Below are positions 2,437-63,606 of a stretch of DNA of 64,000 bases, piece after piece (position 1 is the stretch's first letter; each line of letters begins with the position of its first letter). This DNA is from Octopus vulgaris (lineage: Eukaryota): contig OX597814.1 of the NCBI GenBank assembly GCA_951406725.2, positions 114,080,001 to 114,144,000 on the forward strand. Direction: 5' to 3'. A model generated the notes under the pieces. That model was given only the letters and a program-made list of their open reading frames with translations. It was not told where the DNA came from and ran no database searches. A program made the translations under genes and the position numbers.

Positions 2437-2471
2437 GTTTAACGTTTCGAGCGGAGCTCTTCGTCGGAAAC
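2437..2471 (-). ncRNA. Minimal type-I hammerhead ribozyme motif (U4C variant) in a short Penelope-type element (~2336-2550)
   Basis: Minus strand GUUU-CCGACGA-A-GAGC ucc GCUC-GAAA CGU U-AAAC; stems I and II pair; stem III is the palindrome ACGU. Confidence 0.65.
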
Positions 2472-2654
2472 ATAGGAGATGGAAAGATCCAGAGAAGGGA
2501 AGACAGAGGAAAAAAATCGCCAACGGTACACACGAGGTCACATTTCAACTATATATATATATATAGTTGAAATTTATAGAAAAACAAAAGACGAAGACAG
2601 GTGTATCAACAAGAAAAAGTTGTATTAGTTTGACGCTCGGAAAAGTGAAGAAGT

Positions 2655-2690
2655 TTTTTACATTTCGAGCCCACGCTCTTCAACAGAAGA
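2655..2690 (-). ncRNA. Hammerhead-like motif (A6U variant) in a short element (~2565-2735)
   Basis: Minus strand CUGUUGA-A-GAGC gugg GCUC-GAAA ugu A; homologous to 38855-38890. Confidence 0.55.
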
Positions 2691-4117
2691 GAATAAGAGA
2701 AAATTGAGAGAGAATGAAAAAAAAGTTTGTGGATTTATATATGATTGTATGTATATATTTATAGATATTATATATGTGTGTGTATGCGTGTGTGTATATC
2801 TATATTGATATAGATATACAATCGGTTTTGCATCGCGAATAAAAACTCGAAATTTGCCATGTCATTTTGAATAAAGAATAATGTCAAATTGACCTACACC
2901 AGGTCAAATTTGTCATTCTGGTTTAAAGCAATTAGGAGATGCTTATATATATATATATATATATATATATATATATATATATATATATATATATACATAC
3001 ATATACATATATATATATATATATATATATCGGACAAACATATATACATATATATACATATATATATATACATATCGGACAAACGTCAGTTCTCATCTAA
3101 GCACCAAGCCGTTAAATGTGATATATAATTGTAGCTTTGCGATGCGAAAGCTGACAATATCCACAAGCAAATGTTATATATAGTCATATATACATCACAT
3201 ATATTACATAGACACTCTGCCACACACACACCCTCATACACACACAAACGCACACGCGCTCACACACACACACATTTGTGGTTCCGTGCATGGAATACGT
3301 TAGTTTATAGACTAACAAATACAAGCTATTATATATGTGATTGCATGTTTGTGTGTATGTATGTAAGTATGTATGGATATATATATATTTAATCAGCCGA
3401 AATTACTACGATGATCCGGTTCTTGACTGAAGACTGAGGGTTTCGAATGTCCTGTCCGTGTTTATTGTATCGTCTTCTAAGAGTTATACGTTCTTGTCCA
3501 TGTTGTATTTTTCTACATACCTTAATATATATATATATATCTATATCTATTTAAATATGGAGCACACACATACAGATATACGTACATAGATACAGATATA
3601 GATACATATCTCACAGATACATAGATACCAATATACATGCGTACATACATACAATACATGCAAAAAGTATATACATATATATGCAATACATGCGTACGTG
3701 CATACATACATACATACATACATACATACATACATACATACATACATACATACATACATACATACATACATACATACATACATACATGCATACATGCATA
3801 CAGGTAGGCAGGCAGTTGAGAAGAAATAAGCGTAATTAATGCCAATGCACAAGAGACGGTTTGCAGATGTTCTAACGGAATCTATTTATTTCAAGGAATA
3901 CCATTTTGATATTTCGAAGAAAACTGCTCAAAAAAGATTGTTGCAATATTCTATATGATATAAGGCTACAACTAATCGATACAATTCATTAATGAGACAG
4001 TATATTCATCAATGTTGAGCATTAATACGCGATGTATCAAAGAGATATATGGAGAATTGATGACAAGATACTGGTGGTCTCAGCAGAAAAAAAAAAAACA
4101 GATGTTATGCGTGCTAT

Positions 4118-4553
4118 ATTCTTTATTCTTTTATTTTTTACTTGTTTCAGTCACTTGACTGCAGCCATGCTGGAGCACCGCCTTTAGTCGAGCAAATCGA
4201 CCCCAGGACTTATTCTTTGTAACCCTAGTACTTATTCTGTCGGTCTCTTTTGCCGAATCGCTAAGTTACTGGGAAGTAAACACACCAGCATCGGTTGTCA
4301 AGCGATGTTCGGGAGGTGGGGAACACAAACATACAAACATATACACGCACATCCATACATATATATATATATTTATATATACATATATTCGACGGGCTTC
4401 TTTCAGTTTCCGTCTACCAAATCCACTCACAAGGTTTTGGTTGACCCGAGGCTATAGTAGAAGACACTTGTCGAAGGTGCCAGCCAATGGGACTGAATCC
4501 GGAACCATGTGATTGGTAAGCAAGCTACTTACCACACAGCCACTCCTGCGCCT
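4118..4553 (-). mobile_element. SINE family A
   Basis: Reverse complement of 812-1260. Confidence 0.9.
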
Positions 4554-4976
4554 ATATGTGCTCGTATTGCGCGCACGCGTGTGTGTACATACATACATAC
4601 ATACATACATGCATGCATGCGCAGATACATACATGCACACATACATACACGCATACACACACACACACACACACACACACATATACACACACATATATAT
4701 ATATGTACATATATATATCTGTACATATATATATATATATGTATAAATATATATATATATATATATATATATATATATTTATATATATATATATATATTT
4801 TTAGCACAAGGCATGAGGATACGAAACAAGCATCAACCTGTTTAGAAATAGGAGCTAAATTCCTAATTTAACCACCGGAAGGCACCAAATAACAGAAAAA
4901 GCAACAGTTGGCGTGGAAACGAATAAAGAATTAAGACATTAAAAAAGCATATCTTTAAAGAGTATGCCATTCATAT

Positions 4977-5035
4977 ACTCATATACCATGGTTTCGGATT
5001 CTGGTCCGAGGGCCTCAACCTTCTTCAACATGAGT
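4977..5035 (-). ncRNA. Minimal type-I hammerhead ribozyme motif in an element (~4800-5040) between (TA)n tracts
   Basis: Minus strand ACUCAUG-UUGAAGA-A-GG...CC-GAAA CCAUGG U A-UAUGAGU; 7-bp stem I, palindromic stem III ACCAUGGU. Confidence 0.7.
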
Positions 5036-60612: not shown

Positions 60613-61149
60613 TATATATATATATATTTATATTGTCAGCGCACCATATACTCAGCAACAGATAAGAGTACTCTCTCCCCTGTATATATTTCATTATTGC
60701 TCACAGGGGGCTAAACTTTAGAGGGGACAAACAAGAACAAAGGGATTAAGTCGATTACATCAACCCAAGTGCATAACTGGTACTTATTTAATCGACCCTG
60801 AAAGGATGAAAGGCAAAGTCGACCTTGGCAGAATTTGAACTCAGAACATAATCGCAAATGAAATACTGTTAAGCCTTTCTCCCAGCATGCTAACAGTTCT
60901 GCCTGCTCGCTGCCCTTCTCTCCCCTGTATTGTTTCTATTTATTTGCCAACCTTTTTACAACGTACACTGTGTTTTGTCATTGCACCAACACTATAATGC
61001 AGCCTTGTATCTAGCAAGACCAAAGAGTCCTCTTTAGGGTCTCTATTTGCTCAGCAATCATTTTACAGAGTGTACTAGATGCATTGCACACTAGATGCAT
61101 CAGCACTAAAGAGGTTGTTTTGCTCCCAGCATCACTATTTAATCTGTAG

Positions 61150-61699
61150 CAAGGGTTCTCGGCCATTTTTAACCTGTGGACCCCTTTGATTATTATTTTA
61201 TTCTGGTGGACCCCCAAAGCCATTCGATGTTTAAAATCTAGTTTTGTAGAAATTTCTTTCAAAATCCCTATTTTGTTTTTCACATTAATTTGTGTAGGTC
61301 GAACTATATGAAATGTTAGAGAAAGAAACCTAGCTGTTTCTTGCAATATATACCAATACATACATCTAAAGCAGGGGTTCTCAACCATTCTACAGGTCCC
61401 TTTCATTATCATTTTATTCTGGTGGATCCCCATAGCCATTCAATGTTTAAAATCTAGTTTTATAGAAACTTCTTTCAAAATTCCTATTTTGTTTTTTTAC
61501 ACATTAACTTGTGTAGGTTGAACTATGTAAAATGTTAGAGAAAAAAAAAACCCCAGCTGTTTCTTGTAATACATACCAATACAAACATCTAAAGTAAAAA
61601 TTTTTCAGGGGTTTCTTAAAATAATATTGTAGGCCCCTAATTTACTATCTCATTACTTGGACCCCAAAATGTTATATGGACCCCAGTTGAGAACCACTG
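61150..61699. mobile_element. hAT (Charlie-like) MITE with duplicated 5' ~220 bp
   Basis: CAGGGGTTCTCAAC at 61372 (variant at 61150) and GTTGAGAACCACTG ending at 61699. Confidence 0.8.
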
Positions 61700-62770
61700 T
61701 TATATAGTATTGCTATTTGTTTACCAGTACCTGATGTTTTAACCATGTAATCAGAAATCCAGAATAAATCTCTCAGCCATTTTTATCTTTGAGAAGTCAT
61801 CTGATATACTCTCGTAAAAAATGCAGCATGAAATTTTTCAATTTACAATTATAAATAATTAATATAAACTCTGCTATGTACGTTGAGCACTTCGCTTTCA
61901 TTTAAAGTTTCTACATCATATCATTTATTATAATATAATTTATGCAGATATAATACAACATAGTCAAAAATACTCATAACGTAAATAAAATGAAGTACAT
62001 ATGAAATAGATTTGAAAATGTTCCGTCAAATAATATTAATAAAAATATAGACAGAACAGCTACAAGATGTGAGCTAAGAAAATTTATGCTCTGTTCAAAA
62101 GAAAATAGGTTATAAGTATATAAATGGACACATATATATACAAATGCTAAAATGAATATATATATATACACAAATGAGTTATAAATAAATGTATTTCATA
62201 TTTTTAGCTTACATACATTTCAAGAACTTTGATCTTTGCCAAAAGGCTATTTTGTGTTTAAATATGTACATAAATATACACAGTAGTTTGCTGTATGACT
62301 TTGCTGCAAATTATTTCCATATCTTTTGAGAAATACTAGCATCTACTGGCATTAAATAATTCAAATATTTCAGAAAATGTACCATTAATAATCATATTTT
62401 AGCAACAGAATGGTTCAGACCTCTAATATGATTATTTTTGGTTTATCAACTTTCAACTTATTTCTCTGGCAATATGTGTCAATGCTATCAATCGGAATTT
62501 AACACTTTTGATACTATATTTCTCTTGAAACATTGTATTTCAATTAAATTTTTGAAAATATTGAAGAATTTAGTAAATAACTTTATTGTTGTTAAGCTAG
62601 AGTTTGGAGCATAAATTAACACGAAATTTTCGGTGGAAAAGTTTCAATGTGGATCACTTTAAAACAAGAGACATTTATCACAGGTCTGAGAGAGGTTGGT
62701 ATCAAAAGAGGTTAAGCTCAATAAAATAAACAACATGTAAAACAATTTGCCGCATTGTTAGATGTCAATG

Positions 62771-62956
62771 CTAAGTTTTTAGAACTTCTAATAACTTGTT
62801 GCAGTGATTAACCATTCCGTTTACTGTTCTGTCTCGAGGTGAAGGTTCCAAAGATATCTCTATCTTCTCGATATCCACAGGGTGAGATGCTGGCAAAGGT
62901 GACATAGTCTCCATCAATCTTGACAATAAGCTGGAGCCATTGTATAACACCACAGC
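62771..62956 (-). CDS. Terminal coding exon of an unidentified gene that extends beyond the right edge
   Basis: Acceptor CTGTTGTTTTTAG (phase 0); AVVLYNGSSLLSRLMETMSPLPASHPVDIEKIEISLEPSPRDRTVNGMVNHCNKLLEVLKT*; AT-rich downstream region with minus-strand AATAAA. Confidence 0.65.
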   Translation of the reverse strand, partial: AVVLYNGSSLLSRLMETMSPLPASHPVDIEKIEISLEPSPRDRTVNGMVNHCNKLLEVLKT

Positions 62957-63221
62957 CTAAAAACAACAGATGGGAACTGAATTTATTTCACATTAGCAAA
63001 CAACAAATTCATTTATAACAATAGTAAATTGGATTATTATTGATCATAGAAGTTGTAATTGATAACAACAGATATATGAAAAAAAACAAAAACTATCATA
63101 CGATGGATAATATAGAACAAAGGTATTAACAACAGTTGTCAATGTGAAAGCTATTAAGTAAAAGACAACAATGTTATAGTAACACAGAAATATATTTTTA
63201 GCACAGAATTTTGTCAGTGAA

Positions 63222-63557
63222 GGCACATGGCTCAGTGGTTAGAGCGTTGAGCTTACGATCGTGAGGTTGTGAGCTCGAATCCTGGACCGGGCTGCGTGTT
63301 GTGTTCTTGAGCAAGGCACTTTATTTCACGGTGCTCCAGTTCACTCAGCTGTAGAAATGAGTTGCGACGTCACTGGTGCCAAGCTGTATCGACCTTTGTC
63401 TTTCCCTTGGATAACACTGGTGGCGTGGAGAGGGGAGGCCAGTATGCATGGGCGACTGCTGGTCTTCCATAAACAACCTTGCCTGGACTTGTGTCTAGGA
63501 GGGTAACTTTCTAGGTGCAATCCCATGGTCATTCATGACCGAAGGGGGTCTTTACCC
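63222..63557 (+). mobile_element. Family-C-related SINE with 11-bp TSD TTGTCAGTGAA
   Basis: TSD at 63211-63221 and 63558-63568; tRNA-like head with B box GAGCTCGAATCC. Confidence 0.85.
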
Positions 63558-63606
63558 TTGTCAGTGAACAGGTTGTGGTCTCAAAGCGATGAAAATATTT
63601 TGACAA
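63558..63606 (+). ncRNA. Hammerhead motif with G3:C8 core pair (same family as 54308-54358)
   Basis: UUGUCA-GUGAACA-g-GUUGU ggucucaaa GCGAU-GAAA AUAU U U-UGACAA. Confidence 0.65.

What the first reader, a model, noticed from the sequence alone, without database searches (positions are those of the whole stretch)
2437..63606. About eleven hammerhead-ribozyme motifs from roughly eight short non-coding mobile families in 64 kb
Seen: motifs of the form stemI-NYGWNNA-stemII-GAAA-stemIII-UH-stemI' at 2437(-), 2655(-), 4977(-), 6856(-), 9208(+), 38855(+), 40122(-), 40485(+), 47072(-), 54308(-) and 63558(+). Most sit in 150-350 bp non-coding elements next to (TA)n tracts. Stem III is tiny and usually palindromic (ACGU, ACCGGU, ACCAUGGU, AAUAUU). 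Known: Penelope-like elements carry minimal type-I hammerheads with palindromic stem III that are proposed to cleave as dimers. Inference: this genome hosts a diverse population of Penelope-dependent, retrozyme-like mini-elements that favour TA microsatellites.
Basis: partly seen in the sequence, partly recalled or inferred. Interest (0 to 1): 0.85.

Follow-up and report, generated by a model that had tools for sequence, protein, structure and literature searches.

The report
Hammerhead-tipped ends of Penelope-like retroelements
The eleven motifs are real copies of the small hammerhead-type RNA motif that Penelope-like jumping genes carry at their tail; half of the eight families are simply clipped tail-ends of protein-coding elements, while three are short gene-less repeats that likely borrow the same enzymes, one of them with two paired core letters swapped, and self-cutting is predicted but untested.

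Summary
Observation largely confirmed: all 11 sites belong to 8 repeat families whose copies fit a minimal type-I hammerhead (150 of 230 copies vs 13 of 4,600 shuffles); a 12th copy lies at 37684. Interpretation partly supported. Penelope dependence holds, but four families are 3' pseudo-LTRs of coding elements: 6856 and 2437 (Neptune-type), 40122 (Hydra-type), 47072 (Poseidon-type, with tRNA-like A/B boxes); 2655/38855 probably too. Only 4977 and 9208/40485 are retrozyme-like (ORF-less ~480-nt circularly permuted units). 54308/63558 is an ORF-less ~205-nt element with a fixed 5' end and a G3:C8-swapped core. (TA)n targeting holds for most families, not 47072. Solitary hammerheads from truncated Penelope-like elements, and Penelope-derived retrozymes, are published. 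The swapped core and fixed-5'-end parasites were not found in the papers searched, but this scan noted the tRNA-headed, G3-C8 and retrozyme types before on other DNA of this genome. Cleavage, dimerisation and circles are untested.

The parts
2339..2546 (-). F1: 5'-truncated 3' end (pseudo-LTR) of a Neptune-type Penelope-like element, followed by (TA)n
   Evidence: parent RT/GIY-YIG ORF ends ~2.2 kb upstream in L285, L286, L290
2437..2471 (-). F1 hammerhead, complete: core CCGACGA + extra A, stem II GAGC/GCUC, stem III ACGU
2550..2730 (-). F2-type copy (diverged subfamily); decayed hammerhead at 2655-2690
4804..5039 (-). F3: piece of an ORF-less ~479-nt circularly permuted unit (retrozyme-like)
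4977..5035 (-). F3 hammerhead, 7-bp stem I, stem III ACCAUGGU; C3>U in this copy
6804..8170 (-). F4: 5'-truncated young Neptune-type Penelope-like element (RT thumb, CxxC linker, GIY-YIG, 3' UTR, pseudo-LTR), ending at (TA)25
7547..7990 (-). GIY-YIG endonuclease reading frame of F4
   Evidence: Pfam PF01541 E 1.3e-5; 96% identical to the 784-aa ORF of L091
6856..6893 (-). F4 hammerhead, complete: U3-A8 core UUGAAAA, stem III ACCGGU
9083..9394 (+). F5: piece of an ORF-less ~482-nt circularly permuted unit (retrozyme-like), followed by (TA)n
9208..9266 (+). F5 hammerhead, complete: CUGAAGA + extra A, bulged A before GAAA, near-palindromic stem III
36209..36358 (+). F7 copy that keeps the tRNA-like boxes but has lost the hammerhead
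37608..37768 (-).
   Evidence: E 1e-17; motif limits counted by hand from that output
38772..38989 (+). F2 copy; hammerhead at 38855-38890 with A6>U family core CUGUAGA, 16.2 decayed
40039..40184 (-). F6: 3' end of a Hydra-type Penelope-like element; decayed hammerhead at 40122-40159
40364..40668 (+). Second F5 copy (similarity continues upstream to about 40215); decayed hammerhead at 40485-40544
47006..47236 (-). F7: 3' pseudo-LTR of a Poseidon-type element: tRNA-like A/B boxes, (AAT)n, hammerhead at 47072-47112 (2-nt deletion in stem III)
54159..54371 (-). F8: ORF-less ~205-nt element with fixed 5' end; hammerhead at 54308-54358 with G3:C8 core GUGAACA, stem III AAUAUU
63549..63748 (+). Second F8 copy; hammerhead at 63558-63606

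Best explanation
The motifs are minimal type-I hammerheads in the 3' terminal repeat of Penelope-like retroelements: four families are clipped 3' ends of protein-coding elements, a fifth likely is, and three are gene-less short repeats that are likely copied in trans by the same enzymes. Shown: family membership, the hammerhead-compatible sequence, the link to RT/GIY-YIG genes of three clades for F1, F4, F6 and F7, the ~480-nt permuted units of F3 and F5, the fixed 5' end of F8, and TA-tract neighbours. Inferred from PMC11167929: the element's protein nicks AT-rich DNA, here mostly (TA)n, starts reverse transcription at one of two internal RNA sites downstream of the ribozyme, and usually stops early or folds back. 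That leaves 200-350-nt ends with an intact hammerhead inside. Because copies run through the predicted cut site, the template was uncut or re-joined RNA, so the cut does not set the ends. The ribozyme is predicted to be weak alone and to need a second copy pairing through the palindromic stem III, or the element's protein. The genomic copies are mostly dead and decay neutrally.
For: F4: 29 of 30 endonuclease loci carry the motif about 590-1190 nt downstream; a 784-aa RT + GIY-YIG frame is present and stands in pLTR-ORF-pLTR tandems in L093, L102, L104. F1: ORF in the expected place in 3 of 9 extended loci. F6: CxCX5C linker and endonuclease upstream in L304, L299, L296, L355, L356, as described for Hydra (PMC8557442 section 11). 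F7: endonuclease directly upstream in L198 and L206; 3 of 15 unselected copies with the A box continue into the ORF end. F3/F5: 3 of 15 and 4 of 30 unselected copies exceed one unit, with two 3'-end clusters each and no adjoining ORF. Across families every stem is complementary despite unrelated sequence, and the 3:8 pair covaries (C-G in six families, U-A in F4, G-C in F8). In F5 only the free position 7 varies (A15/U11/C3/G1). Inverted 5' copies flagged in 10 of 30 F4, 10 of 30 F7 and 22 of 30 F8 loci.
Against: No cleavage or RNA-end data. Within families the core is about as conserved as the rest of the element (0.90-0.99 vs 0.90-0.98) and shows no compensatory changes. F1 and F6 mostly carry U4>C and F2 carries A6>U, which may lower activity. 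No ORF was reached for F2 and no partner enzyme was identified for F3, F5 or F8. Pure random truncation fits F4 (5' ends from 13 to >1,400 nt) but not the 5'-end pile-ups of F2, F7 and F8.
Confidence: 0.8

Rival explanations
1. Most short copies come from their own short RNAs with defined starts (SINE-like parasites of Penelope enzymes), even where a coding parent shares the same end.
For: F8: no copy extends past the same 5' base in 30 of 30 loci picked by an exact 5' pattern, nor in 30 unselected loci that reduce to 21 independent insertions. F7: 12 of 15 unselected copies with the A box stop within about 20 nt upstream of it. F2: 16 of the 18 copies that reach -70 stop by about -90.
Against: F4 shows no pile-up. 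Short and long F1 copies share both alleles at nearly all variable sites, with no fixed difference. ARAGORN (0 of 30 loci) and Rfam do not call the F7 head a tRNA. F8 holds T4-T5 runs that would stop RNA polymerase III (general knowledge). A structure-induced stop or microhomology with TA targets could also make pile-ups.
Confidence: 0.45
2. All eight families are retrozymes: non-coding units cut by paired hammerheads, circularised and re-inserted.
For: F3 and F5 are ORF-less, circularly permuted ~480-nt units with copies longer than one unit; the F5 circle folds better than shuffles (z -2.7; F3 z -1.2).
Against: F1, F4, F6 and F7 join coding genes. F8 has a hard 5' end and no wrap-around. Even F3 and F5 occur as monomers or partial tandems; no array with two complete hammerheads per unit was seen in the loci examined, except possibly L057 (two matches 433 nt apart).
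Confidence: 0.08
3. The motifs are chance matches of a loose pattern in AT-rich repeat DNA.
Against: 150 of 230 copies vs 13 of 4,600 shuffles and 0 of 31 control repeats; position in pseudo-LTRs of coding elements; cross-family covariation of the 3:8 pair.
Confidence: 0.02

Closest known systems
Minimal type-I hammerheads (min-HHR) in pseudo-LTRs of metazoan Penelope-like elements (Cervera and de la Pena 2014, PMC4209133; parts 1-2 of 4 read, supplements not seen)
   Same: Extra nucleotide after A9, G10.1-C11.1, palindromic 15.2-16.2/loop 3, U3-A8 variant, many families per genome, mostly solitary and ascribed to truncated elements
   Different: The parts read do not mention a G3-C8 core, family-wide U4C or A6U, or cephalopods
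EN+ Penelope-like clades Neptune, Hydra, Penelope/Poseidon (Craig et al. 2021, PMC8557442; passages and section 11 read)
   Same: C-terminal GIY-YIG, CX2-5CxxC or CxCX5C linker, (TA)n insertion, 5' truncation, inverted 5' copies, optional tail, hammerhead in the pseudo-LTR
   Different: Clade labels here rest on motifs, not on a tree; tails look longer in F6/F8 (~60 nt) and F3/F5 (~100-135 nt); tRNA-like boxes inside a Poseidon-type pseudo-LTR are not in the passages read
Metazoan non-LTR retrozymes (Cervera and de la Pena 2020, PMC7229834, passages; Li, Clavereau, Pollet 2026, 10.64898/2026.07.22.740005, parts 1-3 of 5)
   Same: F3 and F5: ORF-less units of a few hundred nt with a type-I hammerhead, low GC, proposed to be Penelope-derived and Penelope-mobilised
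   Different: F3/F5 carry the minimal PLE-type motif, occur mostly as monomers or partial tandems, are ~480 nt, and circles are not shown
Poseidon PAc of the green anole (Frangieh et al. 2024, PMC11167929; parts 1-2 of 4 read)
   Same: Two internal RT start sites giving two 3' ends, AT-rich targets, copies spanning an uncut hammerhead; engineered C3G/G8C partly restores cleavage
   Different: There the swap is an engineered mutant; in F8 it is the family state (29 of 30 copies)
Non-autonomous Chlamys elements such as MRC1 (PMC8557442 passage) and schistosome SM-alpha SINE-like hammerhead repeats (PMC6765202 passage)
   Same: Short non-coding repeats with Penelope-type ends, or with Pol III promoter plus hammerhead
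   Different: F8 is linear with one fixed 5' end and no tandem; F7's boxes are part of a coding element's terminal repeat

Membership tests
Minimal type-I hammerhead of PLEs | Core N3-U-G-A-N-N8-A with 3:8 pair, GAAA, UH, stems I and II | tested here: met
   All 8 family majorities fit; 3:8 Watson-Crick in each; U4C in F1/F6 and A6U in F2 deviate
Minimal type-I hammerhead of PLEs | Extra nucleotide after A9, G10.1-C11.1, palindromic stem III | tested here: met
   Extra nucleotide in 6 of 8, G10.1-C11.1 in 7 of 8, stem III palindromic in 6 of 8 and near-palindromic in F5, F6
Minimal type-I hammerhead of PLEs | Self-cleavage as dimer or with protein help | not testable with these tools
   Two-copy folding pairs stem III between molecules in 3 of 5 motifs, which is only suggestive
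EN+ Penelope-like element (F4, F1, F6, F7) | RT plus C-terminal GIY-YIG ORF upstream of the repeat | tested here: met
   F4 RT + EN; F1 RT + EN; F6 and F7 EN region only, RT core not reached
EN+ Penelope-like element (F4, F1, F6, F7) | 5' truncation, inverted 5' copies, partial tandems, optional tail | tested here: met
   tandem pLTR-ORF-pLTR seen for F4 only
EN+ Penelope-like element (F4, F1, F6, F7) | Clade by RT phylogeny | not tested
   Neptune, Hydra and Poseidon labels come from linker motifs described in PMC8557442; no tree built
EN+ Penelope-like element (F2) | ORF upstream | tested here: inconclusive
   Longest copy extends about 700 nt into a C/A-rich region and is truncated before any ORF
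Non-LTR retrozyme (F3, F5) | ORF-less unit with type-I hammerhead, head-to-tail | tested here: met
   479- and 482-nt units, longest ATG frames 42 and 71 aa, copies longer than one unit
Non-LTR retrozyme (F3, F5) | [quoted passage not shown] | tested here: inconclusive
   L042's first motif is partial; L057 has two matches 433 nt apart; no long arrays among 102 loci examined, but no genome-wide array search
Non-LTR retrozyme (F3, F5) | Abundant circular RNA | not testable with these tools
   Only assembled contigs were available
Non-LTR retrozyme (F1, F4, F6, F7, F8) | ORF-less head-to-tail unit | tested here: not met
   F1, F4, F6, F7 join coding genes; F8 has a fixed 5' end with no wrap-around
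tRNA-derived SINE (F7) | tRNA-derived head | tested here: inconclusive
   A- and B-box-like motifs at tRNA spacing by eye against a recalled consensus; ARAGORN 0 of 30; no Rfam tRNA hit
tRNA-derived SINE (F7) | Independent of a coding element; fixed 5' end | tested here: inconclusive
   12 of 15 copies stop at the head, 3 of 15 continue into an endonuclease gene end

The most novel reading that the evidence does not exclude
This genome holds a guild of SINE-like parasites of Penelope enzymes: short linear RNAs with defined starts (F8, most F7 and F2 copies) alongside circular retrozymes (F3, F5). F8, present in more than a thousand near-identical copies, carries a working natural G3:C8 hammerhead. 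The eight families would be a ready panel for testing what the minimal hammerhead does in Penelope retrotransposition.
Probability: 0.4. Interest if true: 0.68.

Novelty: new variant of a known kind. Interest (0 to 1): 0.45.

Why it matters
The role of the hammerhead in Penelope-like elements is open, and the enzyme that copies animal retrozymes has only been inferred. One window here samples coding parents of three clades, a young family with many intact 784-aa frames, two retrozyme-like units with Penelope footprints, and a fixed-end short element with a swapped core pair. That gives matched enzyme and template candidates for an in vitro test. It also shows that short hammerhead repeats should be extended before they are called mini-elements or SINEs. 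The base phenomenon is already published, which limits surprise.

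Tried and rejected
Rfam on the window: no hammerhead among the 150 listed of 242 hits, mostly microsatellite noise. Idea that all short copies run from an internal RT start to the transcription start in the 5' repeat: tested on F4 and rejected there, since 5' ends are spread and the 14 long copies have no common 5' boundary. Idea that short F1 copies form their own lineage: no fixed differences from long copies; the F6 comparison was confounded by different 3' ends. 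Idea that F8's own core strands cut at its 5' end in a rewired fold: no fitting core follows the strand that pairs with the 5' end (by eye). F8 as a known small RNA: no Rfam match; fold z -0.93. F3 and F5 as relatives: no significant blastn match. Expression: no RNA holder listed on record; contigs of four runs of uncertain kind cover the F5 unit in pieces and show no ends; not used as evidence. Rows dropped before counts: L151 and L163 (same places as L139, L152); 8 of 9 F8 loci that are one insertion carried in a larger repeat, and one of a head-to-head pair; F2 'INV' flags (TA artefacts); copies lacking the 3' motif. Similarity-ranked sets (30 best of 165-2,923 candidates) are biased to the window copy; pattern sets are the first 30 matches by coordinate. 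No unselected F1 or F6 loci were examined (searches gave counts only). Lunse et al. 2017 (PMC5785218) is not held. Searches for print; none returned a natural G3-C8 hammerhead or a Penelope-mobilised tRNA-headed repeat, but supplements of PMC4209133 and PMC8557442 and the Lunse paper were not seen and may list such variants. Some motif limits are counted by hand and may be off by a few bases.

Full report
Setting. The window is G000:C1:114080001-114144000 of a 2.8-Gb animal assembly, rich in microsatellites and SINE-like repeats. From recalled repeat types and notes of this scan it is probably an octopus; this was not tested. A recent octopus repeat annotation lists recently active Penelope-like families and many unclassified SINEs and does not discuss ribozymes in the parts read (PMC13282606, parts 1-2 of 3).

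Observation. Each of the 11 positions holds a motif of the stated kind or a decayed copy. These settings were chosen after looking. The stronger test is at family level: 30 genomic loci per family, of which 150 of 230 score as hammerheads vs 13 of 4,600 shuffles and 0 of 31 other window repeats. Six window copies are complete, five decayed; 40122 was parsed on a duplicated fragment; a 12th copy lies at 37684. Exact core patterns sum to about 23,800 matches in the genome, a lower bound.

Ribozyme anatomy. The family majorities all show stem I (3-7 bp), a seven-base core, stem II, GAAA, a palindromic or near-palindromic stem III and UH. Stems differ in sequence between families yet pair in all. 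The 3:8 pair is C-G in six families, U-A in F4 (a published variant, PMC4209133) and G-C in F8 (29 of 30 copies). F1 and F6 mostly have C at position 4 and F2 has U at position 6. Within families the core is about as conserved as the rest, as expected for dead copies; the one sign of selection is that F5 varies at the free position 7 only.

What carries them. F4 (6856) ends a truncated element whose GIY-YIG frame lies in the window; 29 of 30 endonuclease loci carry the motif downstream, and long copies have a 784-aa RT/EN frame, some in pLTR-ORF-pLTR tandems. F1 (2437) extends through a 2.2-kb CA-rich region to an RT/CxxC/GIY-YIG frame in 3 of 9 extended loci. F6 (40122) extends about 1.3 kb to an endonuclease with a CxCX5C linker, the Hydra signature. 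F7 (47072) follows the stop codon of an endonuclease without that linker, and its repeat begins with tRNA-like A and B boxes; tRNA finders do not call it. F2 (2655, 38855) shares stem II with F1 and extends 700 nt in one copy without reaching an ORF. F3 (4977) and F5 (9208, 40485) are different: sequence after their 3' end recurs about 480 nt upstream, so the whole element is a 479- or 482-nt ORF-less unit, and 3 of 15 and 4 of 30 unselected copies exceed one unit. F8 (54308, 63558) is about 205 nt; every examined copy stops at or before the same 5' base, with host DNA or an inverted copy beyond; its two ends can pair over 6 nt and the predicted fold contains hammerhead stems I and II.

Insertion footprint. 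3' ends are fixed and usually followed by (TA)n: F1 26/28, F2 23/27, F4 26/26, F6 26/27, F8 11/28, F5 8/22, F3 4/9, F7 0/10, background 5% (F2's query included TA flanks; the F3/F5 remainder mostly continue into the next unit). Two alternative 3' ends occur in F3 and F5, F4, and by eye in F6, F7 and F8. Inverted 5' copies are common. These are the described Penelope marks (PMC8557442), and two internal RT start sites explain the two ends (PMC11167929).

Mechanism. Shown: the anatomy above. Inferred: Penelope protein nicks AT-rich or (TA)n DNA, primes at an internal RNA site some 50-350 nt downstream of the predicted cut, and copies through the intact ribozyme, so templates were uncut or re-joined. 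This agrees with the anole element, whose hammerhead needs protein and is dispensable for insertion in vitro (PMC11167929). The ribozyme is predicted to act as a dimer through stem III in tandem transcripts, and for F3/F5 could release unit-length RNA for circularisation. Random truncation explains F4 (5' ends 13 to >1,400 nt upstream of the motif) but not the pile-ups in F2 (16 of 18 between about -70 and -90), F7 (12 of 15 at the head) and F8. Short RNAs with defined starts are the likeliest source for F8 and plausible for F7 and F2; short F1 copies are not a separate lineage by sequence.

Comparison and verdict. Thousands of solitary minimal hammerheads per animal genome, ascribed to truncated Penelope-like elements, were reported in 2014 (PMC4209133), and retrozymes as Penelope derivatives in 2020 and 2026 (PMC7229834; 10.64898/2026.07.22.740005). 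Hammerhead hits in a squid genome are mentioned without analysis (PMC6962438, passage). A natural G3-C8 core and fixed-5'-end Penelope parasites were not found in seven searches nor in passages of PMC6765202, PMC6155905 and PMC10085705, but Lunse et al. 2017 and supplements were not seen. This scan's notes already describe tRNA-headed, G3-C8 and 359-nt retrozyme types in this genome; they are unchecked and not independent support. Verdict: known kind, with new variants in F8 and F7; interest 0.45.

Noticed in passing
window 2339-2730 and 40016-40690: Hammerhead elements of different families stack on each other at the same TA tracts (F2-type then F1; F6 back to back with F5), so earlier insertions seem to attract later ones.
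   Followed up: partly
L484, L492-L494, L501, L504-L507: One fold-back F8 insertion is carried inside a larger (>2.2 kb) repeat copied at least nine times on C1; its start resembles a Helitron-type end (recalled, untested).
   Followed up: partly
window 42551-42967 (-) and 35761-36051 (-): Fragments resembling Tc1/mariner transposases (weak HTH Pfam hits for the first; a recalled motif for the second).
   Followed up: no
window 25040-25469 (+): Frames resembling a LINE endonuclease by eye; no Pfam hit.
   Followed up: no
window 27783-28397 (+): 204-aa open frame with a hydrophobic stretch, possibly a host exon; only weak Pfam hits.
   Followed up: no
window 787-1271, 4122-4557, 11323-11567, 15267-15673 and about 20 other places: Two abundant SINE-like families without hammerhead score; a tRNA-like Rfam hit at 58221-58294 (30.6 bits).
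   Followed up: partly
window 25820-27074, 31213-33075, 52539-53048, 61142-61594, 48807-48980: Two long inverted-repeat pairs, 252-nt and ~222-nt tandem duplications and a 24-nt minisatellite; the first four gave no hammerhead score.
   Followed up: partly
L091:1500-4899 and one search list: The F4 family is young: many genomic copies keep a 784-aa open frame at 95-99% identity; a candidate active enzyme for in vitro work.
   Followed up: partly
L290, L191, L405, L303, L548, L542: Further Penelope-like protein families (36-70% identity to the F4 or F1 proteins) lie next to hammerhead copies; their own terminal repeats were not examined.
   Followed up: no
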